DNA of 64,000 bases from a virus: IMG/VR virus record IMGVR_UViG_3300009081_000001, positions 1-64,000 of that record. The stretch is one strand, 5' to 3'. Each line of letters begins with the position of its first letter. The stretch's first letter is position 1. The translations under genes and the position numbers were made by a program. Below the pieces are notes generated by a model. That model had not been told where the DNA came from. It saw only the letters and a list, made by a program, of their open reading frames with translations, and ran no database searches. Positions 1,937 to 61,237 of this stretch are shown here, one piece after another.

Positions 1937-3192
1937 TTGTATTTCCTCCTAGTGAAAACCTCTTGATAACAGGACCACCATTGCTTCCAGGTGTTCTCGA
2001 TGGATCGATTCTGCTTGACCCATCGGTGCCCTGTGCGTTGGTAGTGCTCCCGTTTCTCTTTGTCCTTGATGAGTGTAGTGATGGCGCTGTACCAGGCGTC
2101 AGGCTCGTGGTCCACGATAATCCCGCGCTTGTTGCCCCATCCTACAACTCGACCATAGTAGTTGAGAGGGCTTGCCACAACCGCTGCCCCGCCCTCATTT
2201 CCGTCGGAAATGGCCCGACCCGCCGCTAGTCCCTCTGTTGCCTTGATTCCACTTTTGGCATGGTTGAACTTGTCGCCTGGATCTACGGGACAGAGAATGA
2301 TATCTGCTTGCCTGATGACACCTGGATACTCGGTATAGTCCCGAAAGTTCTTGTCGGCGTACAACTGTGCCGGGAACATCAGGGACAATTCCTCGAAGTA
2401 GTCAGGCACGAACCCCATGAGCAAGAGGCTCACGTTGCGGTTCTCGCGTAGCACTCGCGGTATCACGTCCTTGAGCACGATCCAGTCATGGTAGTGTGTG
2501 ACGCTGCCCGTAAGGGCGATAACCAAGCTCTCCCGGTCCCACCGCTTCCACCTGTCCCATCCCTGCCACTCGCTCCACTTGACGCAGTTGGGCAGTACGT
2601 AGACAGGCACGGTAGGGGCATACTGCTTTACAAGGTCGCGCATATAGGGTGTAGTGACCGTGATTGCGTCTCCCTGTGTAAGCAGCTTCTTGGCAAGGTC
2701 CACATGCTCCTTGTACCCAAGGTCGCGTGAGCCCCAGTGGTCGTCGTCGTACTCTAGGACAATGCCCACTTTCTGCCGTGCCATGCGTACCATGTCTAAC
2801 AGGTGAGCTTCACCCTCCAGGGCCACCCCCAACCGCTCCAGCCCGGCCTTGACGTTGGCCGGGATATCCTCGAACTTGGCCGTACCATCTGTACCGTAAG
2901 GAAGAGGGCGGTGCCTGGGCAGTACCCACAGGTCGTAGTCGGTTGGCATGGTCTTGTAGCCCTTGCCACCCGCCGCCCAACGCTGGACTCTGCCGATTGG
3001 TGCCCAGTCCAGCACGGAACCCGGCACCCTCTCCCGTATCTCTTGGAAAGGAATGCGGATCCTGTATGACTCGCACCCGCCCATGACCCCATCATCTCGT
3101 AGATGGATGGCTAGGACGGTGGGCGGCTTACCAGTCGGCTGTCGTCCAGGCTTGCGTTGTGGCGTAGTAAAGCCTGATGTACTTGCGTACAA
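1933..3192 (-). CDS. Glycosyltransferase (GT-B fold, family 4-like)
   Basis: Motifs GGCESYRIRIP, EYDDD, VLPNCV, GSVTHYHDW, ADIILCP...FNHAKSGIKATE; TTG start preceded by GGAGG. Confidence 0.8.
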   Translation of the reverse strand: MYASTSGFTTPQRKPGRQPTGKPPTVLAIHLRDDGVMGGCESYRIRIPFQEIRERVPGSVLDWAPIGRVQRWAAGGKGYKTMPTDYDLWVLPRHRPLPYGTDGTAKFEDIPANVKAGLERLGVALEGEAHLLDMVRMARQKVGIVLEYDDDHWGSRDLGYKEHVDLAKKLLTQGDAITVTTPYMRDLVKQYAPTVPVYVLPNCVKWSEWQGWDRWKRWDRESLVIALTGSVTHYHDWIVLKDVIPRVLRENRNVSLLLMGFVPDYFEELSLMFPAQLYADKNFRDYTEYPGVIRQADIILCPVDPGDKFNHAKSGIKATEGLAAGRAISDGNEGGAAVVASPLNYYGRVVGWGNKRGIIVDHEPDAWYSAITTLIKDKEKREHYQRTGHRWVKQNRSIENTWKQWWSCYQEVFTRRKYK

Positions 3193-3775
3193 TCAGCGCC
3201 TCCCCTTCTTCCTGGTCTGTCCAGGCATCTCCCCAAAACGGACCCATCTGCACCTGTTCGCCAAAGCTGTCCACAATGGCCGCTTCGGTGTCTATCTTTG
3301 CCCCCGCCTCACGGAGAGCCTTGATGGTACGATTCTCTACCAGAGAGGCAAGGTGCCCGGCGTCCCGCCTTTCAAGCGTCAGGCCGGGCACCTCATCTCC
3401 CCATACCTCTATCTCGATAGTGAAAGCCCGCGCCATGCGAGAGCCACCACCAACCATCTCATAGTGAGCAGTATGCCTGAGTTGCGCTGCTTCCGATTCC
3501 CCGAAGGATGATATACGCCCTGTCAGATTGCCGCCCGACTGTAGCTGTGGATAGCGCATAGGGTAGTGAGGCCACTCCCTGGCGTTCTCTGGATCGTTCT
3601 CATGGATGAGCACGACAACGGCGCTTGGGTCATCCTGGCGCGGCCCTACCTTGATGGTCGTCATGCGGCTGGCATCGTCGGCGTCTATCTCGGTCTGCAG
3701 CTTGAGGGTAAGCAGATCCACCACGGCATCCATGATGAGATCGCACACCCCCTGCTCGGTAGGCATAGTACTCAT
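3128..3775 (-). CDS. Putative tail terminator / neck protein
   Basis: 215 aa in the head-tail joining position; ATGA overlap with the adaptor gene. Confidence 0.5.
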   Translation of the reverse strand: MSTMPTEQGVCDLIMDAVVDLLTLKLQTEIDADDASRMTTIKVGPRQDDPSAVVVLIHENDPENAREWPHYPMRYPQLQSGGNLTGRISSFGESEAAQLRHTAHYEMVGGGSRMARAFTIEIEVWGDEVPGLTLERRDAGHLASLVENRTIKALREAGAKIDTEAAIVDSFGEQVQMGPFWGDAWTDQEEGEALIVRKYIRLYYATTQAWTTADW

Positions 3776-9027: not shown

Positions 9028-10785
9028 TCACAGTATGGACTCAACAAAATCAGCCATTTTGGGATTGCCGGCAGTGTCGTTTGGGTGGAGGTGATCAATC
9101 AAGTCCTCGTCCAGCCAAACCGGCGGGTCGTAGGTATTCCAGCACGGCCACCCCAGGGCGGCAGCCGTCGCCGCAATGGTTGCACGCCGTATCAAGGCCG
9201 CACCCCCGTCCCGAGGCGGAACATTTAGGAAATGTAACGTCGCGCCCGGATGATCCGACGCGAATTGATTGGCCCCCGCCGTCATGGCGGCTGCAATCGC
9301 GTCCTGTGGCGCTCCCGACACATCGCTATCATTCGTGCCGAGCATGACCAACCCAACGTCGCACGGGTCACTGGCTGCCGCCACAACCTGATCCAGAAAA
9401 TCGTTTCCCGCTCCTGCTTGCGTAATAAATTTACTACCGCCCAACGCGCGATTATTGACTATCATCCGGCTGCCACCGTGGAATTGTGACCACAACATCG
9501 CGGGCCATGCCAGGCCGGTGCAGGCAAGGGAGTCACCAAACACGGAGACATACATACGTGTTCCAAAGGGTTGGGAGACAGCCAGGGTTTCGGCGGGCGT
9601 TAATTCCACATCCCACAACGCCACATGCTGCACCAATCCAGGCCAGCCCGCCTGGCCCAACCAGGCCACGCCCCCCACCCAACCATCCTGCCAGGCAGGG
9701 ATGGTGGAAACATCGGCTAGCAACAGGCCATTGATGCGGTTTCGCACCCGATTGTTACTAACCGACCACGACAACACCAGATTGTTCCAACCAAACATCC
9801 CATGTATTTGCCGGGACAGCGCATTGCCACGGCCTGAACCACTGACGATGCGAGTGGAGGTTATGGCATTATTGGCAGTGGTGCGGTAAACCTGTATAAG
9901 ATTGTTGCCATCTTGACCAATATTGATCAGATTTCTAGAGATTCCGTCTGTCCAAATGGCGTCGTCTGTGATGCGAAACCAAATGGACAGCGTGCCCTCG
10001 TCCCGATTGAGTATGTCCCGCCAATCGTGAGTGTTAATGCTACAGGCGCTGACCGACCCGTCATAGGCCGGACATATGTTTCCATCGAACCCCGCCTGAC
10101 CCAACGTCACGCTGGTATAAGCCCCATTGCGACCCGCCGCCGCGAGGACTTCTGTATCCGCCCGCTTGAATGTCACATCATCTAAATAGACCTCAGCACC
10201 GACAACGTTCGCCGGATACAGCCGAATGCCAACATTCGCACAACCGTCGGGGATCACTACCTGGGCAACTACCTCGGCCCAGTCTGTCCCGCTGATACCA
10301 GTGGAAACAATGGACCCGATGTTCGCCGTAGTCGTGGCATTGTAGAACGCATAGCGCCCGGCGTTGGTCCCATCGCCACGAGTCCAAAAACGCAACTCGT
10401 AGGTTTGCCCCACCGCGCAGGGCGCTATATTCCTATACAGGGTCGTTAGCCCACTGGCCCCTTGAACGATCTTGCACGAATGCGAGCCACTATGCACAAT
10501 GACGGTTTCATCAACAATGGAGCCGTTGGGTACATAGCTGGACCAATAGTAGAAAACGGGAGTGCCCGCCGTTTCAAAGCCGCCATTTTGTACCAGGTTG
10601 TTTCGGTTCCCCGTGTCCACGGCAACGATAGCCTCAGCCACTGCACCAGATGCTTCCCATAGCGGCAAAAAGCCGATCATGTGGCTCGGTTGAATTTCCA
10701 TCAAACGCTGATAGTATGCGGCAGGCTGCCCCTTGCTGCCACGTACATTATTGCGCCAGGCTCCGTGCATTCTCGAATGACCCAT
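9028..10785 (-). CDS. Multidomain protein: carbohydrate-binding module + LamG/concanavalin-like + SGNH esterase
   Basis: NLVQNGGFE...YLDDVTF (CBM4/9-like); GTLSIWF..WNNLVLSW (LamG-like); FGDSL, ALGG, LGTND, DHLHP (SGNH blocks). Confidence 0.75.
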   Translation of the reverse strand: MGHSRMHGAWRNNVRGSKGQPAAYYQRLMEIQPSHMIGFLPLWEASGAVAEAIVAVDTGNRNNLVQNGGFETAGTPVFYYWSSYVPNGSIVDETVIVHSGSHSCKIVQGASGLTTLYRNIAPCAVGQTYELRFWTRGDGTNAGRYAFYNATTTANIGSIVSTGISGTDWAEVVAQVVIPDGCANVGIRLYPANVVGAEVYLDDVTFKRADTEVLAAAGRNGAYTSVTLGQAGFDGNICPAYDGSVSACSINTHDWRDILNRDEGTLSIWFRITDDAIWTDGISRNLINIGQDGNNLIQVYRTTANNAITSTRIVSGSGRGNALSRQIHGMFGWNNLVLSWSVSNNRVRNRINGLLLADVSTIPAWQDGWVGGVAWLGQAGWPGLVQHVALWDVELTPAETLAVSQPFGTRMYVSVFGDSLACTGLAWPAMLWSQFHGGSRMIVNNRALGGSKFITQAGAGNDFLDQVVAAASDPCDVGLVMLGTNDSDVSGAPQDAIAAAMTAGANQFASDHPGATLHFLNVPPRDGGAALIRRATIAATAAALGWPCWNTYDPPVWLDEDLIDHLHPNDTAGNPKMADFVESIL

Positions 10786-10786
10786 A

Positions 10787-11257
10787 CTAGCCTCCGATGT
10801 AGGTCACACCTTCGCCGTTGGTGTCAACGTCGATGAACACGGTTGCCAGATTCGCCACTTCCACGAACACCTCTTCCCCGGCATCCAAGACAAAGCCGGT
10901 AAGAGACGTGACAGGGTTGGCCCCAACATAGACGTTGTTGGTGTTCGCTGCCAGCGCCTTGATGCGTACCCCGTAGGTCAGCACCGTCGATGCGCCAAGC
11001 GCCACTTCGGTTCCCGCTGCGGCAACTACCGTCTTGCCATGCACAATAGTCGCTGCTGGTGAGACAGTCACCACCCCCGCCAGTCGAGCCGCCCGGTCGG
11101 TCACGTCTACCTCTGTACTGGCAGCAAGCTCGATCTCATTATCTGCCAGAGACACCACCATAGCATGACCATCGCCCGTATCCTCATACTTCTGATAGGT
11201 GCCAGTCGAGCCCGCTGCCTCTTCTGTACCCGCAATCTTCTTGTATTCGTCAGCCAT
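10787..11257 (-). CDS. Putative virion structural/decoration protein
   Basis: Ala/Val/Thr-rich beta protein (VRIKALAANTNNVYVG) in the head module. Confidence 0.5.
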   Translation of the reverse strand: MADEYKKIAGTEEAAGSTGTYQKYEDTGDGHAMVVSLADNEIELAASTEVDVTDRAARLAGVVTVSPAATIVHGKTVVAAAGTEVALGASTVLTYGVRIKALAANTNNVYVGANPVTSLTGFVLDAGEEVFVEVANLATVFIDVDTNGEGVTYIGG

Positions 11258-13726: not shown

Positions 13727-14187
13727 TCAACGCTGGTCCCTTATCTCTCTCACTTCTACCCGGTATTCCCTGCCAGAATCGACCATCAGCCCCGCCTTTG
13801 CCTCAGAGAGAAGCAGTTGAATGTAGTCGTCGGGTAGGGCTCTGGCTTGTAGCTCTTGGATGCGCTCTGCTATAAATGAGGCCCATATCTCGTCCCTGTA
13901 GCCCTCGGGCAAGTGCTTGCGGCATTGCTCATAGGCCCATATCCAGAATCTCGCTAGACCCTTTTGCACTTTGGCATGGCCTCCACGATGGCATTATATG
14001 TCGCATCCCTGGCCTGTGCATCTGAATAGATAATCATCCGCTCCAGACCCTTATAGGTAACGATGATCCGGTATTCATTTTGGCGGCTGGATGCGGTATA
14101 TTGAACATCTGCCTTAGTAACCGTCCTAATGCCAGCAATCGCAATGACGGCATCGCTATCTGCTACATACAACACATTCTCGCTCAT
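13727..14187 (-). CDS. Two small hypothetical genes (14187-13954, 13969-13727)
   Basis: Overlapping start/stop coupling downstream of terminase. Confidence 0.55.
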
Positions 14188-15956
14188 CTTGTTCTTACCT
14201 CTCTCCTTCGATCTCGTACTTCCCTAAAGAAGTACTCCGGTTCTTCCCAGTACTCCTCTTCCTCTTTCGGCTCTGGCATCTGGAACATATCAGCCACATA
14301 GGGCCATACCACGTTCGTCAGCGCCAAGAGAGCCATGACCGTATCCTGTGGCAGCTTCTTGTCAAGTATCTGATACCCTGATAGCTCCTGCTCCAAGAGG
14401 CTGATAAGGGGGGAGACGAACAACCCCGACTGTAGCAAGAGCTGTGCCTGCATGATGAGCGTCGGCTTGATGACGTTCATGTTCAGCGGTACAATCTGCA
14501 AGTCCTCGGGCCACACCACTTCATGCACGTTCTTCTGTGTGCCGCCTGCTTCTGCCGCGAAATGGCCTTCTGGCATCGGGTATCTTTGTAAGATGTACTT
14601 GCAGTCTGCAATCCAGGGACGGATAGAACCTTGCCCTACCCTGCTCACATTCCCCACATGGAAGTACACGATCTCGAACGGGCGGGCGTCTATCCTTGCG
14701 ACGATATTGCACCACTTGTTCCGGTTAGGCACCCGCCCGGTGCCCGGATCGCCACCTACCGCATACGCTGCTCCCTGCTCTGGCGGCTTCTCATAATGGA
14801 CCAACCCATACTCTTCGTGTTTGATGAACTTCCAGCCCGGCGCTTCCTCTTCTACCGCTGCAACCGCTGTCTCGGTGAGCGAGTTGTCAAAGAGGTTATC
14901 AAGGTGGTCCTGAACGAACACATCACCGACAGCCCTTGGGCGCTCGGCATCCATCTCGACACGCAGCCCATCAGGATCGTCCAAGAACTGCTGGCGGAGT
15001 AGCCCCTTCTGGTCCTCGTCAAAGTAGGCATTCATGGCGCTGGTCCAGGTCATAGACCAACGCTTATCAGGGTTGTTCTTGCCCCACTTGTAGCGAATCC
15101 ACTCCCAGGCCCACGGTCCAGCGTTCCCGGTGAGCATCAGGACCGTGCGCTTGGTGACGTTCTTCTTGACTACCCAGGCATCGAGACTCTTCTGCAAAGC
15201 CCTGCGCCGTCTCGGGTTCGTCTCGGTCTGCATCTCGAAGACTCGCTCATCGTACTCTTGCTTGAGGGCAGGGTCAGAGTTGAGCGTATACCAGTTAGGC
15301 CCACGCGCAATCCCTGTCAGGATGCGCACAAAGTAATCGTCCATGTTGATGCGGAACGATTCATCACTGGTCACGTAGCCCGCCGTAAGGGACCGTAGCA
15401 GCTCCATCGGCTTGCCACCATGCCCGCCCTGTGACCGGAAGAAGAACTTTGTACCTGGGTCAAACTCATTCCAGGGACGCAACTCGATATCTGGTGCCGG
15501 TGCCACCCTGGTATGCTGTAGGAAGATACGGCTGAAGTTGGACGCTCCCCCCTTCTCCAAGATGATATCATAGGCATACTTGGACTGCTCGATAGAGGGT
15601 GCCGTGTGCAGCCAGTTATAGCCGGGGGTGAATGCTGTGCGCGTGGCAAAGACAATCGCCAATGCCTCTGACTTGCTGGCACCACGACCGCCGTGCAACA
15701 TGATATCTTGGATGGGGCAGTAGTACAATGGTGCCTGGAAGTCTTGGAGCTGCCAGCCAAAGAGGTACTGCAGCGCCACGTTGATGATGGGCTGGCCGTT
15801 CTCACTCCTGGGAATGTAGGCGGGCCAGTCCTCTCCGTACCGCAAGAAGCCATCCCGAATAAACCAGTCACCCGACCGGGCATACTCGAATAGCTCAATC
15901 TCCTCGGGTACAAGGATATCCTCAACAAATCTAGGTGCTTCTGTCTTGCGGGCCAT
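14184..15956 (-). CDS. terL: Terminase large subunit
   Basis: Walker A HGGRGASKS, Walker B YVTSDE, nuclease acidic motifs VGGDPG and PQDTVMAL. Confidence 0.88.
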   Translation of the reverse strand: MARKTEAPRFVEDILVPEEIELFEYARSGDWFIRDGFLRYGEDWPAYIPRSENGQPIINVALQYLFGWQLQDFQAPLYYCPIQDIMLHGGRGASKSEALAIVFATRTAFTPGYNWLHTAPSIEQSKYAYDIILEKGGASNFSRIFLQHTRVAPAPDIELRPWNEFDPGTKFFFRSQGGHGGKPMELLRSLTAGYVTSDESFRINMDDYFVRILTGIARGPNWYTLNSDPALKQEYDERVFEMQTETNPRRRRALQKSLDAWVVKKNVTKRTVLMLTGNAGPWAWEWIRYKWGKNNPDKRWSMTWTSAMNAYFDEDQKGLLRQQFLDDPDGLRVEMDAERPRAVGDVFVQDHLDNLFDNSLTETAVAAVEEEAPGWKFIKHEEYGLVHYEKPPEQGAAYAVGGDPGTGRVPNRNKWCNIVARIDARPFEIVYFHVGNVSRVGQGSIRPWIADCKYILQRYPMPEGHFAAEAGGTQKNVHEVVWPEDLQIVPLNMNVIKPTLIMQAQLLLQSGLFVSPLISLLEQELSGYQILDKKLPQDTVMALLALTNVVWPYVADMFQMPEPKEEEEYWEEPEYFFREVRDRRREVRTR

Positions 15957-50894: not shown

Positions 50895-52379
50895 ATGAGT
50901 AACGGCATCAAGGAACCGGGAACAGAATATGTGGTAGATGAGGACAAGCTACTCAAGATTAGCCACTATGACGAGCGCGACCTTGCGGCATTGCAAGCTA
51001 TCGGCAACTATGATTCTTTTCAGATCCTCGAAGCAGTCAATGAAGACTCCATTGCTTTCCGTAAGTGGTTTGTGGATATCACTGGCGACCTGGCAGCGGG
51101 CGTTATGCTCTCGCAGATCCACTACTGGCATGGCATCAGCAAACGGGATGGCAAGCCAAGGCTAAAGGTTGAGAAGGAAGGACACCTATGGCTATGCAAG
51201 TCAGACAATGAGTGGTGGAAAGAAGCAAGGTTGACTGAGAAGCAAGCCCGCCGGGCGCGAGAGATTCTAGAGAAGCAAGGGCTCATCATCTGCAAGCTGT
51301 GGCGATTCAGTAATGTCCCACGTATCCACATGAGAATCAACAAGCCAGTGTTTATGTCGGCGCTGAACGCTGCAATGTGTGAGAAATCCCGATTTGCCCT
51401 ACAGGGCAAATCAGACTTGCCGCAGGGGGCAAATCAGACTTGCCCTACAGGGCAAAACATTAACAGAGACTACTTAACAGAGACTACCATAGAAGATCCC
51501 CCCACGCCTGACGGCGATGGGGTACCCTTAAAGGAGGGACAGAATGGACAATCTGATCGGGTTTATGGAATCACAGCTAGAACTCAACTTGCAACTAGTC
51601 GAGGGAATGGCCGGCCTGAGTCGTCGCTTGCGTTCCCTGGAGAAGCAGATGGCGAAGAAGGAGGCAGAGAACCTACGATTGGCCCTCAAGCTGGTGGACC
51701 TGGAGAAGATGGTGAAGCTGCTGACAGAAGCGGGGGGCAGCATGGCGGTGGAGCTGGTAGTACTGGAGAGCAAGATAGACCAGGCGCGGAAGGCGGCGGA
51801 GGCATACTACGACGACGTGCTGAATATCACGGCGAACCTGGGAGTAGACCTGGCAACGGCGGAGCTGCAACTAGGCAGGCTAATGCTCAAGGTAGCAGAC
51901 CACCTGCAGGACAAGTAGGGGGCAACTCCGTAATCCACAATCTGCTTAGTGGCACACGAACAGAGGGAGACGACGAAGCCCGCCCCAAGTGGCAGATACC
52001 AGAGTCACCGGAGCAAGAGGCATTTCTGTCTGTGTGTAGTGCCAAGTGGTTCAAGCCTAAGCAGAAGAGTAACATCAAGGGGATACTCGCCGCCTTACGA
52101 GCCGGGGACATGGCCGGGGATGACGTGTACCAGAAGTGTGCCGAGGCTATAGCAGACAAGGGGAAACTGGAGAGTCCTTTGCCCCCCTTGCCCCGGTCCT
52201 GGTACGAGTGGCGAGAGGGACACGCCAAGGGCCACAGGTGGAGCGTGGATGGATTCGTTAATGCTCTGCTGGATAGGGACCGGCTGATGGAGCATTGCCA
52301 GTATCACTTAAAGACGAAGGGAGTAGTAACAAACGACTATGGCGCTGATCCTTGGTTAGAGAACCTACCGGGAGGATAG
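50895..52379 (+). CDS. Replication initiator (replisome organiser type)
   Basis: N-terminal winged helix (AGVMLSQIHYW...LTEKQARRAREILEKQGLI); internal iterons; directly upstream of DnaB. Confidence 0.75.
   Translation: MSNGIKEPGTEYVVDEDKLLKISHYDERDLAALQAIGNYDSFQILEAVNEDSIAFRKWFVDITGDLAAGVMLSQIHYWHGISKRDGKPRLKVEKEGHLWLCKSDNEWWKEARLTEKQARRAREILEKQGLIICKLWRFSNVPRIHMRINKPVFMSALNAAMCEKSRFALQGKSDLPQGANQTCPTGQNINRDYLTETTIEDPPTPDGDGVPLKEGQNGQSDRVYGITARTQLATSRGNGRPESSLAFPGEADGEEGGREPTIGPQAGGPGEDGEAADRSGGQHGGGAGSTGEQDRPGAEGGGGILRRRAEYHGEPGSRPGNGGAATRQANAQGSRPPAGQVGGNSVIHNLLSGTRTEGDDEARPKWQIPESPEQEAFLSVCSAKWFKPKQKSNIKGILAALRAGDMAGDDVYQKCAEAIADKGKLESPLPPLPRSWYEWREGHAKGHRWSVDGFVNALLDRDRLMEHCQYHLKTKGVVTNDYGADPWLENLPGG
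51391..51456. repeat. Three 23-bp-period palindromic iterons, probable replication origin
   Basis: TTGCCCTACAGGGCAAA / TTGCCGCAGGGGGCAAA / TTGCCCTACAGGGCAAA separated by TCAGAC. Confidence 0.75.
51544..51918 (+). CDS. Coiled-coil protein nested in another frame of the initiator gene
   Basis: AAGGAGGG RBS + ATG; natural amphipathic helical composition while the host frame is Gly-rich here. Confidence 0.65.
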   Translation: MDNLIGFMESQLELNLQLVEGMAGLSRRLRSLEKQMAKKEAENLRLALKLVDLEKMVKLLTEAGGSMAVELVVLESKIDQARKAAEAYYDDVLNITANLGVDLATAELQLGRLMLKVADHLQDK

Positions 52380-56556: not shown

Positions 56557-57564
56557 AGAAGCAAACCAAGGACACCATCAGGCAGAAGTTGGATGACGCT
56601 GCCCGCTATGCCAAGCAAGCCAAGATGGCAGTGCAACGGGTAGACCGTGCGTCATTCCAGGCATCCTTGAGGGGTGCAAGGTTCATGCTGGATGCAGCAG
56701 AGTACTACTTTAAGGAGGGAATGGAGGAGTAAATGGAAGTCAGGTGGGTATGGGACGGCTATCACTGGACAGCGATATTCTTTGAGGAAGGCAAGATCCA
56801 CACTCCAAGCCTTGTCCTACGAGAGCATGAACTTGTTGATGCTCTAAGGCAACTACAATACGATAAGGTATACTTCGAGAAACCTAGGAGCAAGAACGAT
56901 GAATGAACTAGTGCTTGAGGCAGAGAAGGGCTACCTTGGACCGGCAGTATCACCTAACCCTATGGTCAAGATACATGGACCGGGGCCAGAAGGGGCAACG
57001 TGTGGTGGGTGTGTATACCTGTTCCGCAAGAGGTACACCAGTCGTACCTATCTCAAGTGTAGTATGCGGGGTGGGCTCACCAGTGGAGCAGCGACAGACC
57101 AGCTTGCAGGATGGATGGCCTGTGGATTGTGGGAGGAAACAGACGATGAAGAACAAGATCAAGGATAGGTTGGAGGAACCGTGGGCAAAGAAACAGGTGG
57201 GACACACATTGGGGAATGTGCTATACTGGGTGCAGAACGGCTACCAGTTCACACAGGAGGACCGGACTTTGATAGAGCAGCTACATGGCTACTTGCAGGA
57301 GCCCTCTTGTTCAGCCTAATGGTCACTCTTGGCTACTTACTGCAACAGGAAGGGGAAAGCCTGTGGGTAACAACGCGGAGGGAGTAGCATTGCCAACAGT
57401 ACGCCAGTTGCCAGAGGAGGGGATAGCAGTCATCCGGTGGCAGGAGTGTAACAGACAGACTAGGATGGCGCTTAACTGGATGCAAGCATGTGCTCTTTTT
57501 GAGGGCACAACGGTCTACGAGTGGATAGATAGGAAGGGACACCTATGAATCACGAATCTGAAAC

Positions 57565-57593
57565 TTGACAAGGATTCTGAACTATAGTATACT
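57565..57593 (+). promoter_or_regulatory. Dedicated promoter of the RAMP-like operon
   Basis: TTGACA-17-TATACT, then AGGAGG RBS before 57628. Confidence 0.8.
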
Positions 57594-57627
57594 GTTCACG
57601 TTCGCAATATAATAGGAGGGAACGAAA

Positions 57628-58248
57628 ATGGTACAAAAGAAATCGGAAGTTGTGGAAGTACCGGCACTCAGAATTGAGTTACTGTCAGTTACCTTGGTAG
57701 GGGATTCCCCGCTCATCTGTCACCGCTTCTCCAAGAAGGCGAAAAACCAAATCCTTGCCAGTCAGGGTAAGCGCGTGAAGACACGCGAGGCAAGGGATCC
57801 AGAGGGGGAAGGTATGGACGCTGCCTATACTCTGCCCGTCCCTGGAGCCTATGGGTTCCCCGCATCTGCTTTCAAGCAGGCTGCTGTCAGGGCGGCAAAG
57901 CAAGTGCCCGGCATGACAATGGTGGATACACAGGGATACTTCTTTATCAAGGCGGCAACGCCCGATGATGCAGAGCAGCTTGTCGGCCCCCTGCGCTACA
58001 GCGAAATGCAGATCAACGAGGATGCAGTTCGTCTCGCTGGCCCTGGTAGGCCGGTAGACCTGCGCTTTCGCCCCTACTTCCTTAACTGGGAAGTTGACCT
58101 TGAGATCGAGTACAATGCCAGCCTTGTCAGCCCAGAGCAGATCGTCTTTCTTCTGGACTCGGCAGGGTTTGGCGTGGGTGTGGGTGAGTGGAGGCCAGAG
58201 AAGGGCGGCAACTATGGTCGCTTCCACGTAAAGAAAGGGAATGAATAA
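57628..58248 (+). CDS. RAMP-fold (Cas7/Cas5/Cas6-superfamily-like) RNA-binding protein, stand-alone
   Basis: N-terminal strand VTLVGDSPLICH, YGFPASAFKQA (cf. RAMP IPGSSLKG), C-terminal Gly-rich loop AGFGVGVGEWRPEKGGNYGRF. Confidence 0.75.
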   Translation: MVQKKSEVVEVPALRIELLSVTLVGDSPLICHRFSKKAKNQILASQGKRVKTREARDPEGEGMDAAYTLPVPGAYGFPASAFKQAAVRAAKQVPGMTMVDTQGYFFIKAATPDDAEQLVGPLRYSEMQINEDAVRLAGPGRPVDLRFRPYFLNWEVDLEIEYNASLVSPEQIVFLLDSAGFGVGVGEWRPEKGGNYGRFHVKKGNE

Positions 58249-58250
58249 CT

Positions 58251-58808
58251 ATGTGGATGCCCGTCGAAGAGAGTGGTCGCTGTATCTACAGGTGCAAACC
58301 TGGCAGTCCTGTACCAGATGCACGAGCGCAAGAGATTGGAGAGTACATTGCTGACCTGGAAGAGAACAGCGGCATTACTCCTCATATCTTGCTCCAGGAT
58401 GCTACTAACCCCGAGTCCAAGCTACACGAGTTCTTTGAGTGGGACGATAAGAAGGCTGGCTACCACTGGCGTCTGCAGCAGGCGCGGCAGATCATCAATC
58501 ACTTTGAGATCGTCGTGGTCAATACCCGCGAGGAAGAAGAGACAAGGGTACGCGCCTGGCACAGTATCAACATCCGGGTTCAACCCCCCAAAGGACAGGA
58601 GTTTCACACGGAGACTGACAACGGGGAGCCCGAAATGCAACGGGTGTACGTCAACGCTATTCAGGCCCTCTCAGTAGAAGACACACGCAAGCAGGTTGTA
58701 GCCAACGCCCTCAGAGAATTGAACGGCTGGCGTCATCGCTATCAGACATACGACGAGTTCAATCCTATCTTCACCGGGATTGAGCAGCTTAGTCTTGCCG
58801 AGGCATAG
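58251..58808 (+). CDS. Accessory protein coupled to the RAMP-like gene
   Basis: Starts 2 nt after the RAMP stop; helical ITP..LL..A..PESKLHEFFEWDD..A...RLQQARQII. Confidence 0.7.
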   Translation: MWMPVEESGRCIYRCKPGSPVPDARAQEIGEYIADLEENSGITPHILLQDATNPESKLHEFFEWDDKKAGYHWRLQQARQIINHFEIVVVNTREEEETRVRAWHSINIRVQPPKGQEFHTETDNGEPEMQRVYVNAIQALSVEDTRKQVVANALRELNGWRHRYQTYDEFNPIFTGIEQLSLAEA

Positions 58809-59179
58809 GCAGGCAAGGCGAGGCGTAGCGGGGCTTGTTGAGGCTTGGTGGGGTTAGGCACGGCGCGGTGTGGCAAGGCAGTCTCGGCTAGGCGTGGCGT
58901 GGCCTGGCCCGGCCCGGCGCGGTGTGGCAGGCAAGGTATGGCAAGGCGGTGCAGGGTGTGACAAGGCCAGGCGAGGCTAGGCAGGCGAGGACCGGCGGGG
59001 CTTGTCACGGTGGGGCACGGCACGGCGGGGCAGGCAAGGTATGTCATGGCGGGGCAGGCGTGGCGATGTGTGGCGAGGCGAGGCGAGGCGCGGCGCGGCT
59101 GGGCGAGGTTCGGCGGGCGCGGCCTGGATTGGCGAGGCGGGGCACGTTCTGGCTAGGCTTGGTGGGGCAGGCAAGGTTT
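58808..59179 (+). ncRNA. GGY-NN pentamer array (68 pentamers, 8 GGCR tetramer punctuators), candidate guide RNA precursor
   Basis: 57 of 68 pentamers start with GGC/GGT and the other 11 differ by one base; the last two bases vary freely; begins at the stop codon of the accessory gene. Confidence 0.85.
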
Positions 59180-59221
59180 CATTTCCGTCGGAAATAGAAA
59201 ACTACAAGAAGGAGAAAGAGA

Positions 59222-59791
59222 ATGCCTAAGCAGTATACGGTTTACTGGACCAATTACTGGACCAACGAGTACATGATACCTCTCAGCTTTGCTGCAGAGT
59301 CAATGAGATACGACCCCGAGCAAAAAGCCTACGAGTTCAAGACAGATGTTGGGGGGTTCCTCATCCCCAAGCAGCAAGTCCTCTATGTAGAGTGCGGCAA
59401 GCACGTCGGCCCGGCGCAAGCCTTGATAGAAGCAGGAAAGAGGGCCGCTCAGAAGAGGGGCAAGAACATAGCCATGACAGAGATTGATATAGACGAACTG
59501 CTGTCTACCCTGCCACCGGGTGAGGATGATGAATGGGACGTAGCGTTCACGGAGGATGATATAAACGAGGCCAAGCGTAACAGGCTCTTTGGCCCTACAA
59601 CAACTCAGAAGAGAGAGCTGGTAATGGCGGCACTCGCGATCCGAGATGCAATCGAGGAATGGGGCTGTGTAAAAGCTCTTGCTTGCGATGACGATGAAAG
59701 CACATGGCGAGACTCCCTACCGGAAACCATAATGGCTGCCTATGATAAACTAGACGCTGCACTCTCTCCACTCTATGGCGACCCACTGTAG
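59222..59791 (+). CDS. Hypothetical protein
   Basis: AAGGAG RBS; 189 aa; flanked on both sides by the 15-bp palindrome. Confidence 0.6.
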   Translation: MPKQYTVYWTNYWTNEYMIPLSFAAESMRYDPEQKAYEFKTDVGGFLIPKQQVLYVECGKHVGPAQALIEAGKRAAQKRGKNIAMTEIDIDELLSTLPPGEDDEWDVAFTEDDINEAKRNRLFGPTTTQKRELVMAALAIRDAIEEWGCVKALACDDDESTWRDSLPETIMAAYDKLDAALSPLYGDPL

Positions 59792-59818
59792 TCTATTTCC
59801 GTCGGAAATGAGGACTGA

Positions 59819-61237
59819 ATGAGAGCGGGAATCATGGCGAGGGTGAGCACCGAGGAGCAGCTTGCGGGCTATTCTATCGGCGCTCAGGTAGATGCAATGC
59901 TCAAGTTCTGCGAGGAACAGGGCTGGCAGGTCATGGAAAGGTACATCGAAGAGGGTGTATCTGGCACAACGTCTAACCGGCCCGAGCTACAGAGAGCTTT
60001 GCGCGATGCAGAAGCGGGGAAACTAGATGTGCTGCTTACCCACCAGCTTGACCGCTTTTACCGAAACCTGCGCCTACAGATCGAGACGCTTGGTAAGCTA
60101 GGAGAGATGGGAGTTGGGTATCTATCTATCACCGAGAGGATTGACTACTCAACTCCCACCGGTATGCTATTCATGCAGATGTTGGGCGCGTTCAACGAGT
60201 ACTATTCCAGCAATCTGGCACGCGAGGTTAGGAAGGGCAAGCAGGGTAGAGCAGAGAGTGGTTTGACCAATGCAACGTTCTTGCCCCACGGTTACAAGAG
60301 GGTAGAGAAGGAAGCCGTCATAGAACCAGTAAGGGCAGAGACAATCCATTACATCTTCAAGCTATATGCAACAGGGCTTTACTCCTATCGGGCAATTGCA
60401 GATAGGCTCAATGCAGAAGGACACCCCGCAAGCAGTAGGAGTAAGGGAAAGTGGATCTGGCAAGCAGTGAGGGGTATCATTGAGAATCCCTACTACATCG
60501 GTCTTATCAGGCACAACGAAAAGATGTATCAGGGCAAGCACGAACCTATCATCGAGCGCAAGTTGTGGGATATGGCGCAACGAGTGAGGGAACAACGTGC
60601 AACATCGTACACTCATTCGAGGACAAAGGAAACTTTCATCTTGCGCGGCACCGGCCACTGTCTTGCCTGTGGTAGTAGGCTGTATGCAGAGAGTCATGGG
60701 AAGAATAGGTACTACCGTTGCAGTGGAAACCAAAAGGGGGTAAGTTGCACAGTTCCATTTGCAAGGGTGGAAAAGGTAGATGCAAGTTTGGCAGAGCTTG
60801 TATCTCACGCGCAACTACCAGGAAACTGGCGTGAAGAGATTGCAAGAGCTATGCAAGGGCCAGTTTCCAACGATGGCAACAAGCGCAAGTACTTGCAAGA
60901 GAAGTTGCGCCGGTTGCGTGAGCTGTACCTTGAGGATGACTTTACCAAGGAGGAGTACAATCAAAGGAAACGTGAATTGGAAAGTGAGATTGCAAGGCTA
61001 CAACCACCAGGGAAACCAGACGACATTGACGCCGAGTTGATTGCAAACCTGAGTAAACTGTGGGAGGGAGCTGAGTTGCAGCAACGCACCGACCTTGCAA
61101 ACATCCTCTTTCGTAGTGTAGAGGTAGATATGCAAGAGGAAAGGGTAGTTTCCTTTGAGTCGTACCCCGAACATGCAATGTTGTTCCGGCTTATCTTTGA
61201 GGAAAGGGAAGGGAAGTTCTACAATGGACAGGCATAA
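59819..61237 (+). CDS. Large serine recombinase (integrase)
   Basis: ARVST catalytic Ser, DRFYR, recombinase domain, zinc ribbon CLACG..YYRC..C, coiled coil. Confidence 0.95.
   Translation: MRAGIMARVSTEEQLAGYSIGAQVDAMLKFCEEQGWQVMERYIEEGVSGTTSNRPELQRALRDAEAGKLDVLLTHQLDRFYRNLRLQIETLGKLGEMGVGYLSITERIDYSTPTGMLFMQMLGAFNEYYSSNLAREVRKGKQGRAESGLTNATFLPHGYKRVEKEAVIEPVRAETIHYIFKLYATGLYSYRAIADRLNAEGHPASSRSKGKWIWQAVRGIIENPYYIGLIRHNEKMYQGKHEPIIERKLWDMAQRVREQRATSYTHSRTKETFILRGTGHCLACGSRLYAESHGKNRYYRCSGNQKGVSCTVPFARVEKVDASLAELVSHAQLPGNWREEIARAMQGPVSNDGNKRKYLQEKLRRLRELYLEDDFTKEEYNQRKRELESEIARLQPPGKPDDIDAELIANLSKLWEGAELQQRTDLANILFRSVEVDMQEERVVSFESYPEHAMLFRLIFEEREGKFYNGQA

What the first reader, a model, noticed from the sequence alone, without database searches (positions are those of the whole stretch)
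57565..59179. Candidate non-CRISPR RNA-guided system: stand-alone RAMP-like protein + accessory gene + GGY-NN repeat RNA
Seen: a consensus promoter (57565-57593) precedes a 206-aa ORF, a coupled 185-aa ORF, and, starting at its stop codon, a 372-nt array of pentamers with a fixed GGY and a free NN. Established: the first ORF shows the RAMP hallmarks (N-terminal strand plus P-L, a P-x-S-x-x-K helix, terminal Gly-rich loop ending YGRF). Cas7-type RAMPs polymerise on guide RNA with a fixed nucleotide period. No cas1/cas2, cas3, cas10 or CRISPR repeat is visible in the window. Inference: one subunit binds each pentamer, clamping GGY and displaying NN, giving a programmable nucleic-acid-binding filament, probably aimed at competing mobile elements. 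With no nuclease in the operon it may act by repression. From memory this resembles recently reported phage VIPR systems; that link needs verifying and may reduce novelty.
Basis: partly seen in the sequence, partly recalled or inferred. Interest (0 to 1): 0.95.

Follow-up and report, generated by a model that had tools for sequence, protein, structure and literature searches.

The report
Phage VIPR RNA-guided silencing locus
This is a genuine example of a VIPR system, a CRISPR-related viral RNA-guided DNA silencer first described in 2026 preprints, carried by an uncultured 87-kb temperate phage, so it is real but not new.

Summary
A near-consensus promoter (57565-57593) precedes a 206-aa gene, a coupled 185-aa gene and a 378-nt GGY-NN pentamer array that starts at the second gene's stop codon.

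This is a VIPR system (Vipr RAMP protein + vap accessory gene + vrRNA array), published in four 2026 bioRxiv preprints.

- **Relatives:** In 160 related loci, 136 carry a same-strand GGY-NN array (1 on the opposite strand) and 136 carry an ORF2 homologue downstream.
- **Array type:** It is the tail-less "staggered" kind. Seven in-phase runs of 5-14 pentamers are separated by 4-nt GGCA steps (one run by an equivalent 9-nt spacing), a punctuation shared by 133 of 160 relatives.
- **Targets:** No target reached the published 80% threshold. The core of one guide spells the catalytic strand of rival phages' large-terminase nuclease domain, which is only a lead.
- **Not tested:** Expression and binding could not be tested.

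The scan has already noted VIPR-like loci in more than 300 other genomes. Verdict: new member of a known kind, low interest.

The parts
57565..57593 (+). sigma-70-type promoter of the vipr-vap-array operon (TTGACA, 17 nt, TATACT)
   Evidence: 11 of 12 consensus matches, the best site in 57000-59900. It lies in the 80-nt gap after the upstream ORF, which ends at 57548. Its function is not tested.
57628..58248 (+). vipr: a 206-aa single-RRM RAMP protein (Vipr family)
58251..58808 (+). vap: a 185-aa accessory protein, conserved partner of this Vipr clade
58802..59179 (+). vrRNA array: GGY-NN pentamers of the tail-less staggered type
   Evidence: 67 GGY sites, 46 spaced exactly 5 nt, against 3.1 in shuffles. 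The 5-nt phase steps by -1 at seven boundaries. No Rfam family and no hammerhead.
58812..58881 (+). in-phase segment S1, 14 pentamers (candidate guide)
   Evidence: Phase analysis and unit listing. Its 8-unit core spells the first strand of the Terminase_3C nuclease domain.
58881..58930 (+). in-phase segment S2, 10 pentamers (candidate guide)
58930..58984 (+). in-phase segment S3, 11 pentamers (candidate guide)
58984..59033 (+). in-phase segment S4, 10 pentamers (candidate guide; decodes with Gly at every third codon)
59033..59057 (+). in-phase segment S5, 5 pentamers (a short unit, possibly not a guide of its own)
59057..59116 (+). in-phase segment S6, 12 pentamers (candidate guide)
59116..59170 (+). 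in-phase segment S7, 11 pentamers (candidate guide)
59182..59194 (.). 13-bp palindrome TTTCCGTCGGAAA, starting two bases after the last pentamer; possible 3' boundary of the transcript
   Evidence: One of 37 copies in the window, with 0 expected by chance. No T-run terminator was found in 57000-59900. Its role is unknown.

Best explanation
The locus is a VIPR (Viral Interference Programmable Repeat) system of a complete 87-kb temperate phage from a freshwater-sediment metagenome.

**Shown here**
- ORF1 is a Vipr-family RAMP protein.
- ORF2 is the accessory (vap) gene conserved with this Vipr clade.
- The 378-nt tract is a vrRNA array of the tail-less staggered kind.

**Inferred by homology with the experimentally studied SUSP1 system**
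- The promoter at 57565 drives one transcript covering vipr, vap and the array.
- Vipr protomers polymerise on the RNA, one per pentamer. Each clamps G1 and G2, while the neighbouring protomer holds Y3. The conserved contacts here are H32, R148, E187, W188 and R189.
- The exposed NN dinucleotides read double-stranded DNA by the NNx (one-base-skip) code.
- The bound filament blocks transcription of a competing phage or other mobile element. Vap, possibly a winged-helix DNA binder, assists.

**My own inference**
- The seven in-phase runs, delimited by 4-nt GGCA steps, correspond to about six or seven separate guides of 10-14 repeats.
- The position beside the excisionase-like gene and the serine integrase, together with a host-type promoter, suggests expression from the prophage.
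For: - **Sequence homology to solved Vipr:**
- **Contact residues:** the residues named in the cryo-EM preprint (H17, K33, R138, D177, W178, R179) align to H32, K48, R148, E187, W188 and R189. All six are invariant or at least 90% conserved in 38 relatives except E187, which is E or D.
- **RAMP fold:** all top Foldseek matches are Cas7-type RAMPs (Csm3, type VII Cas7, Cas7-11).
- **Array statistics:**
- **Co-occurrence and strand:** 136 of 160 loci carry a same-strand array and 1 an opposite-strand array. In 129 the array lies downstream of vipr, and 136 have a vap homologue downstream.
- **Variable NN, conserved GG:** among close relatives the mismatch rates are G1 3.4%, G2 4.1%, Y3 12.6%, N4 24.5% and N5 24.8%.
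- **Conserved punctuation:** phase shifts between runs are -1 in 251 of 319 cases. There are 854 four-nt units, 70% of them GGCA, in 133 of 160 loci, and the break-to-break distance peaks at 10-12 pentamers.
- **Phage context:** a portal gene, a DnaB-like helicase, a DnaD/O-like replication initiator and a large serine integrase; direct terminal repeats; CheckV 100% complete.
- **No self-target:** none above the shuffled-guide level, as the preprint reports for its own systems.
Against: - Nothing here shows that the array is transcribed, processed or bound by the protein. No RNA run holds the sequence.
- No target met the published threshold of at least 80% NN match.
- Identity to the only experimentally studied clade is just 21%. 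The vap gene is unrelated to SUSP2's, and there is no 3' tail or pseudoknot. The processing and the vap-dependent steps may therefore differ.
- The preprint's text states small-RNA-sequencing confirmation only for the ribozyme-interspersed and single-vrRNA architectures, not for staggered arrays.
Confidence: 0.92

Rival explanations
1. The locus is a decayed or domesticated remnant. The protein and repeats descend from a VIPR system but no longer guide anything, or the repeats serve another RNA or DNA role.
For: No target was found in the phage's own genome, in the 160 related loci and other fetched stretches (about 1.1 Mb), or, as exact core matches, in IMG/VR and, for the S1 core, the JGI metagenomes. 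About 10 of the 73 pentamers are degenerate, for example AGCGG, GTTGA and TGTGT.
Against: Both ORFs are intact and the RNA-contact residues are conserved. The promoter is near-consensus. Internal degeneracy is reported as frequent in working vrRNAs. Missing targets are expected for an uncultured sediment phage whose rivals are not in the databases.
Confidence: 0.05
2. The G-rich pentamer tract is a DNA-level element, such as an attachment or recombination site for the adjacent serine integrase or a G-quadruplex-forming region, and ORF1 and ORF2 are unrelated neighbours.
For: The tract lies about 640 nt upstream of a large serine integrase gene (59819-61237, phrog_95, E 5.7e-106). It is 50% G.
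Against: The array follows vipr on the same strand in 136 of 160 loci from many phyla and is on the opposite strand in only 1. A DNA-level site would not be so strand-bound to one gene. GG is conserved while NN varies, which fits a protein-gripped RNA scaffold.
Confidence: 0.02
3. The pentamer tract encodes a Gly/Ala/Arg-rich protein, for instance the 91-aa frame at 58922-59197.
For: Several open frames of 48-101 aa cross the tract on both strands.
Against: A 5-nt period with -1 phase steps cannot keep a reading frame. The frames overlap each other in all phases, which is what any G-rich repeat gives. The constraint falls on GG of every pentamer, not on codon positions.
Confidence: 0.01

Closest known systems
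VIPR systems with staggered vrRNA arrays (bioRxiv 10.64898/2026.04.26.720920, legend of fig. S18)
   Same: A lone Vipr RAMP, one vap gene, no cas genes and a phage setting. The GGY/NN array is continuous, and adjacent guides meet at a 1-nt overlap. That overlap is what the 4-nt GGCA|GGC steps amount to here.
   Different: The text held here does not say which of the seven types has staggered arrays, so I cannot assign a type. Its wording names small-RNA sequencing only for the ribozyme-interspersed and single-vrRNA kinds.
Type II VIPR of Escherichia phage SUSP1 / SUSP2 and the Pseudomonas fulva prophage (the experimentally and structurally studied systems; PDB 36pp)
   Same: Homologous Vipr protein with conserved GGY-contact residues. 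The GGY/NN pentamer code, a two-gene operon and a phage origin.
   Different: Only 21% protein identity. The vap genes are unrelated. SUSP2 vrRNAs are discrete units made of a leader, 11-12 repeats and a hairpin tail, and they lie both upstream and downstream of the genes. The array here is continuous, tail-less, GGCA-punctuated and only downstream.
Unannotated homologous loci in cultured actinobacteriophages (Gordonia phages ODay and UmaThurman; Mycobacterium phages Florinda, Clifton, Saal and others)
   Same: Vipr homologues at 36-41% identity over at least 90% of the length. ODay has the same continuous, GGCA-punctuated array directly after the gene.
   Different: In ODay the array sits between vipr and the next gene rather than after vap. 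The genes are annotated only as hypothetical proteins. The hosts are different, whereas the host here is unknown.
Cas7 / Csm3 backbone subunits of class 1 CRISPR-Cas effector complexes
   Different: No CRISPR repeats, Cas1 or other cas genes. A period of 5 nt with 2 read and 3 clamped, instead of 6 nt with 5 read. The target is double-stranded DNA read with a one-base skip.

Membership tests
VIPR system | Sequence homology to established Vipr proteins, with the GGY-contact residues conserved | tested here: met
   PDB 36pp_D 'SUSP1 Vipr protein': E 1.1e-6 with the single sequence and 2.5e-10 with the profile, where it is the only PDB hit. H17/K33/R138/D177/W178/R179 align to H32/K48/R148/E187/W188/R189.
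VIPR system | Adjacent vrRNA locus: tandem GGY-NN (YNNGG) pentamers, at least 4 units, on the strand of vipr | tested here: met
   67 GGY sites with 46 exact 5-nt spacings, against 3.1 in shuffles, on the + strand. The same holds in 136 of 160 relatives.
VIPR system | Minimal locus: vipr plus one accessory (vap) gene, with no CRISPR array and no other cas genes | tested here: met
   A two-gene operon. No Cas1, no Pfam RAMPs hit and no CRISPR-like repeat in the genome.
VIPR system | Viral or proviral setting (typical but not obligatory) | tested here: met
   An IMG/VR virus record of 87,059 bp with direct terminal repeats and CheckV 100% completeness. It carries portal, DnaB-like and serine integrase genes.
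VIPR system | GGY conserved and NN hypervariable among related arrays | tested here: met
   Mismatch rates of 3.4% and 4.1% (GG), 12.6% (Y) and 24.5% and 24.8% (NN) in 12 pairs of close relatives. Caveat: the alignments are anchored on GG and the pairs are not independent.
VIPR system | vrRNAs are expressed and co-purify with Vipr | not testable with these tools
   No RNA run holds the sequence.
VIPR system | Guides match natural targets by the one-base-skip (NNx) rule at >=80% of NN positions | tested here: inconclusive
   No hit in the phage's own genome or in the fetched loci rose above the shuffled-guide level; the only higher score, the metagenome match (22 of 28), had flanks at chance. 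Exact core scans gave 0 hits for S1, S2, S3 and S7, or a number about equal to chance for S4 and for the S1 core in the metagenomes. The collections allow exact matching only.
VIPR type II (SUSP1 / P. fulva clade) | vap1 accessory gene, and discrete vrRNAs each ending in a conserved 3' tail or pseudoknot | tested here: not met
   ORF2 is not similar to the SUSP2 gene in the vap1 position (E 0.054). The array is continuous with no tail, unlike SUSP2. Vipr identity is 21%.
CRISPR-Cas class 1 effector (Cas7 as part of a cas operon) | CRISPR repeat-spacer array and further cas genes (Cas5, the large subunit, and Cas1/Cas2 or Cas6) | tested here: not met
   Searches of the phage's own genome with Cas1 and the Pfam RAMPs family found nothing, while the control genomes were detected. 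No tandem repeat of CRISPR period was found.

The most novel reading that the evidence does not exclude
In this tail-less, ribozyme-less clade the 4-nt GGCA step may itself be the punctuation. A one-base loss of register would stop each Vipr filament, or mark a cleavage site, every 10-14 repeats, so that one transcript yields about seven guide complexes without a handle. In addition, at least one guide (S1) may be aimed at the catalytic first strand of the large-terminase nuclease domain of rival phages, so that the phage blocks its competitors' DNA packaging.
Probability: 0.25. Interest if true: 0.5.

Novelty: new member of a known kind. Interest (0 to 1): 0.25.

Why it matters
It adds one well-documented natural example, in a complete genome, of the least-studied VIPR array architecture: staggered, with no tail and no ribozyme.

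Across 160 relatives it shows that the punctuation is a specific GGCA 4-nt unit recurring every 10-12 pentamers. That gives a concrete hypothesis for how guides are delimited.

It also points to cultured Gordonia and Mycobacterium phages in which the same architecture could be tested at the bench.

It does not change the picture of what VIPR is.

Tried and rejected
- **The look-up of encoding contigs:** The closest Vipr homologues (53-62% identity, on short metagenome contigs) therefore could not be fetched.
- **Expression:** no RNA holder was listed for the stretch. The single DNA holder, a freshwater sediment metagenome, is probably the source sample.
- **Target search with the NNx rule:**
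  - The phage's own genome gave nothing above the shuffled-guide level.
  - About 1.1 Mb of fetched loci (the 160 related loci and a few others) gave nothing above it either, apart from the metagenome match described below.
  - Exact 9-10-unit cores of S1, S7, S3 and S2 in IMG/VR gave 0 hits.
  - The S1 core in the JGI metagenomes gave 2 hits in one gene, with the flanks matching at chance level (22 of 28). I rejected it.
  - The S4 core (18 bases) in IMG/VR gave 3 hits from 2 independent sequences, one of them a collagen-like Gly-X-Y repeat. That is about the number expected by chance.
  - A peptide search with the decoded S1 motif matched 29 stretches, but none could be confirmed.
- **ParM/actin-like reading of S1** (a lead from another first-stage note): 39 of 48 exact 16-base matches lie instead in terminase large-subunit genes, 38 of them at the conserved start of the nuclease domain (VGLDFGYTNDPTA; Pfam Terminase_3C confirmed in the four sampled). 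Their flanks match at chance, the best total being 21 of 28. This stays a lead, and I had no scans left for a shuffled-guide control.
- **Protein and RNA family libraries:** Pfam, NCBIfam and Rfam have no family for either protein or for the array.
- **Host:** relatives span many phyla, and relatives cannot be drawn for a virus record.
- **VIPR type (I-VII):** it could not be assigned, because the figures and tables that define the types are not in the held text.

Full report
**What is there**

- A TTGACA-17 nt-TATACT promoter lies at 57565-57593. It scores 11 of 12 and is the best such site in the 2.9 kb scanned.
- An AGGAGG ribosome-binding site precedes a 206-aa ORF at 57628-58248.
- A 185-aa ORF at 58251-58808 starts two bases after the first one's stop.
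- From its last codons onward, a G-rich tract runs from 58802 to 59179 and holds 67 GGY sites. Of their spacings, 46 are exactly 5 nt and 9 are 10 nt.
- Shuffling the same 378 bases 2,000 times gave 3.1 ± 1.8 five-nt spacings, and never more than 9.
- The 87-kb genome holds no other such array on either strand.

**The setting**

The window is the first 64 kb of an 87,059-bp IMG/VR virus record with a 104-bp direct terminal repeat, rated 100% complete by CheckV.
- It encodes an SPP1-like portal, a DnaB-like helicase, a DnaD/O-like replication initiator and a large serine integrase at 59819-61237. The integrase lies just downstream of the locus, after a small ORF with a weak excisionase match.
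- It is therefore a temperate phage.
- The only sequencing run that holds the stretch is a freshwater sediment metagenome.
- The genome has no Cas1, no Pfam RAMPs-family match, no CRISPR-period repeat and only one vipr-like gene.

**ORF1 is a Vipr protein**

- Pfam and NCBIfam are silent. PHROGs places it in phrog_4652, a family of unknown function.
- Against the sequences of all PDB chains the single sequence hits one meaningful entry, 36pp chain D, "SUSP1 Vipr protein" (E 1.1e-6).
- A profile of 38 homologues hits only that entry, at E 2.5e-10.
- BLASTP against the corresponding gene of phage SUSP2 aligns 198 residues at 21% identity, E 1e-13.
- The cryo-EM preprint names the residues that hold the RNA. 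H17 and D177 hold G1, and R138 and W178 hold G2. R179 holds Y3, and K33 contacts the target backbone.
- In the alignments these fall on H32, E187, R148, W188, R189 and K48. R148 and R189 are invariant, and H32, K48 and W188 are at least 90% conserved in the 38-sequence alignment.
- The AlphaFold model (pLDDT 85.5, pTM 0.81) has a single RRM core, a long beta-hairpin at 126-152 carrying R148, and a glycine-rich loop at 180-197 before the last strand.
- All top Foldseek matches in the PDB are Cas7-type RAMPs (type VII Cas7, Csm3, Cas7-11), at probability 1.00.

**The association with the array is a family property**

- The word-based search found 1,458 homologues.
- I fetched 80 loci from IMG/VR and 80 from GTDB genomes of many phyla.
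- Of these 160, 136 carry a GGY-NN array on the strand of vipr and only 1 on the other strand. In 129 the array lies downstream of vipr.
- 136 have a homologue of ORF2 downstream of vipr. The median distance from the end of vipr to the array is 514 nt, the length of that gene.
- In 12 pairs of loci whose vipr genes are 87-99% identical, the mismatch rates were 3.4% and 4.1% at the two G, 12.6% at Y, and 24.5% and 24.8% at the two N. This count leans on alignments anchored by GG, and the pairs are not independent, so it is supporting evidence only.

**What is known**

Four 2026 bioRxiv preprints cover this system.
- The first defines VIPR as a Vipr RAMP, a vap gene and vrRNAs of 9-16 GGY/NN repeats. 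It shows co-purification of RNA and protein, the one-base-skip (NNx) reading of double-stranded DNA, and reprogrammable repression. The natural targets lie in satellites and rival prophages. It defines seven types and several array architectures: tailed, staggered with 1-nt overlap, hammerhead-interspersed and single.
- The second gives the filament structures.
- The third shows the phage-satellite contest in E. coli.
- The fourth recovers VIPR arrays with a genomic language model.

Its remembered name for the system was also right.

**How this member differs from the studied type II systems**

- ORF2 is not similar to the SUSP2 gene in the vap1 position downstream of vipr (E 0.054).
- ORF2 belongs to a large family of its own, with 7,596 cluster representatives at E<=1e-3 and a confident model (pLDDT 93.4).
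- SUSP2 vrRNAs are discrete units: a leader, 11-12 repeats and a hairpin tail.
- The array here, and that of Gordonia phage ODay, are continuous and tail-less. Rfam finds no ribozyme.

**The grammar of the array**

- The 5-nt phase of the GGY sites falls by one at each of seven points. This splits the tract into in-phase runs of 14, 10, 11, 10, 5, 12 and 11 pentamers, followed by a 2-unit stub.
- Six runs end in GGCAG and one in GGCGG. The final G is also the first G of the next run, which is the "1-nt overlap" of the preprint's staggered arrays.
- This was checked in the relatives.
  - Among 319 transitions between robust in-phase runs, 251 are -1 shifts.
  - There are 854 four-nt units against 218 six-nt units.
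  - 70% of the four-nt units read GGCA, although only 25% of regular units begin that way.
  - 133 of 160 loci have at least one.
  - The distance between successive steps peaks at 10-12 pentamers.
- The step is thus a conserved, sequence-specific punctuation at guide-length intervals.
- It is not known whether it stops the filament by loss of register or marks a cleavage site. The preprint's text names small-RNA sequencing only for two other architectures.

**Targets**

- Using the published NNx scan, none of the seven guides matches the phage's own genome above the level of shuffled guides. This is what the authors report for their own systems.
- None matches anything in about 1.1 Mb of fetched loci above that level, apart from the metagenome match described below.
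- The public collections can only be scanned for exact patterns.
  - Cores of 9-10 units of S1, S2, S3 and S7 gave no hit in IMG/VR.
  - The S4 core gave two independent hits, about what chance predicts.
  - The S1 core gave one gene in the metagenomes, with flanks matching at chance level.
- Read as codons, S1 spells [KN][DE]VG[FL][DE][FL]GYTAV[KN][RS].
- An 8-unit core of S1 (16 fixed bases) has 48 exact matches in IMG/VR.
  - 39 lie in terminase large-subunit genes. 38 of these sit in the motif VGLDFGYTNDPTA, which opens the RNase H-like nuclease domain; Pfam Terminase_3C begins there in the four sampled contigs.
  - The six flanking units match at chance in all of them. The best total is 21 of 28, below the 80% rule.
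- The phage's own candidate terminase has VGGDPGTG at that place.
- This is a lead towards rival phages' packaging genes, not a finding.

**Verdict**

- The locus is a new member of a known kind.
- The scan has already recorded VIPR-like loci in more than 300 genomes, so the interest is low.
- What remains open is the processing of staggered arrays and the identity of the targets.

Noticed in passing
window, 37 sites from 2198 to 63500, including 59182-59194 and 59796-59808: The 13-bp palindrome TTTCCGWCGGAAA occurs 37 times in 64 kb, with 0 expected in shuffles. One copy starts two bases after the vrRNA array and another lies just before the integrase gene. Its role is unknown; it could be a protein-binding site, an RNA hairpin or a terminator.
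   Followed up: partly
window 51394-51456: A 23-nt unit repeated 2.7 times inside the DnaD/O-like replication initiator gene (50895-52379). It looks like iterons of an origin embedded in the initiator gene, as in lambda.
   Followed up: no
window 14184-15956 (-): A 590-aa ORF next to the portal gene, probably the large terminase. It has no Pfam or PHROG match, and its nuclease-strand motif reads VGGDPGTG.
   Followed up: partly
L082 (Gordonia phage ODay, MW534375.1: vipr homologue at locus 2480-3109, record 10343-10972; array at about locus 3110-3320, record about 10973-11183), plus Mycobacterium phages Florinda, Clifton, Saal, Mattes and others: Cultured actinobacteriophages carry Vipr homologues (36-41% identity) annotated as hypothetical proteins. 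ODay has the same GGCA-punctuated, tail-less array. They are tractable models for this architecture.
   Followed up: partly
window 58984-59033 (segment S4); L167 5247-5272, L169 4079-4104: Guide S4 decodes with Gly at every third codon ([DE]PG[FL]TGTTG). Its 18-base core matches a collagen-like Gly-X-Y repeat in two IMG/VR contigs that are identical around the match. The number of hits is about what chance predicts.
   Followed up: partly
L083 6042-18788 and L084 2-3880 (genome 70042-86880, beyond the window): Four very large ORFs (about 1,100-1,400 aa) with no confident Pfam match. One has only a sub-threshold HHH_3 hit, 24.2 bits against a 27-bit cut-off. Another note of this scan reads part of this region as a tape-measure protein fused to an RNA polymerase. 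I did not test that.
   Followed up: no
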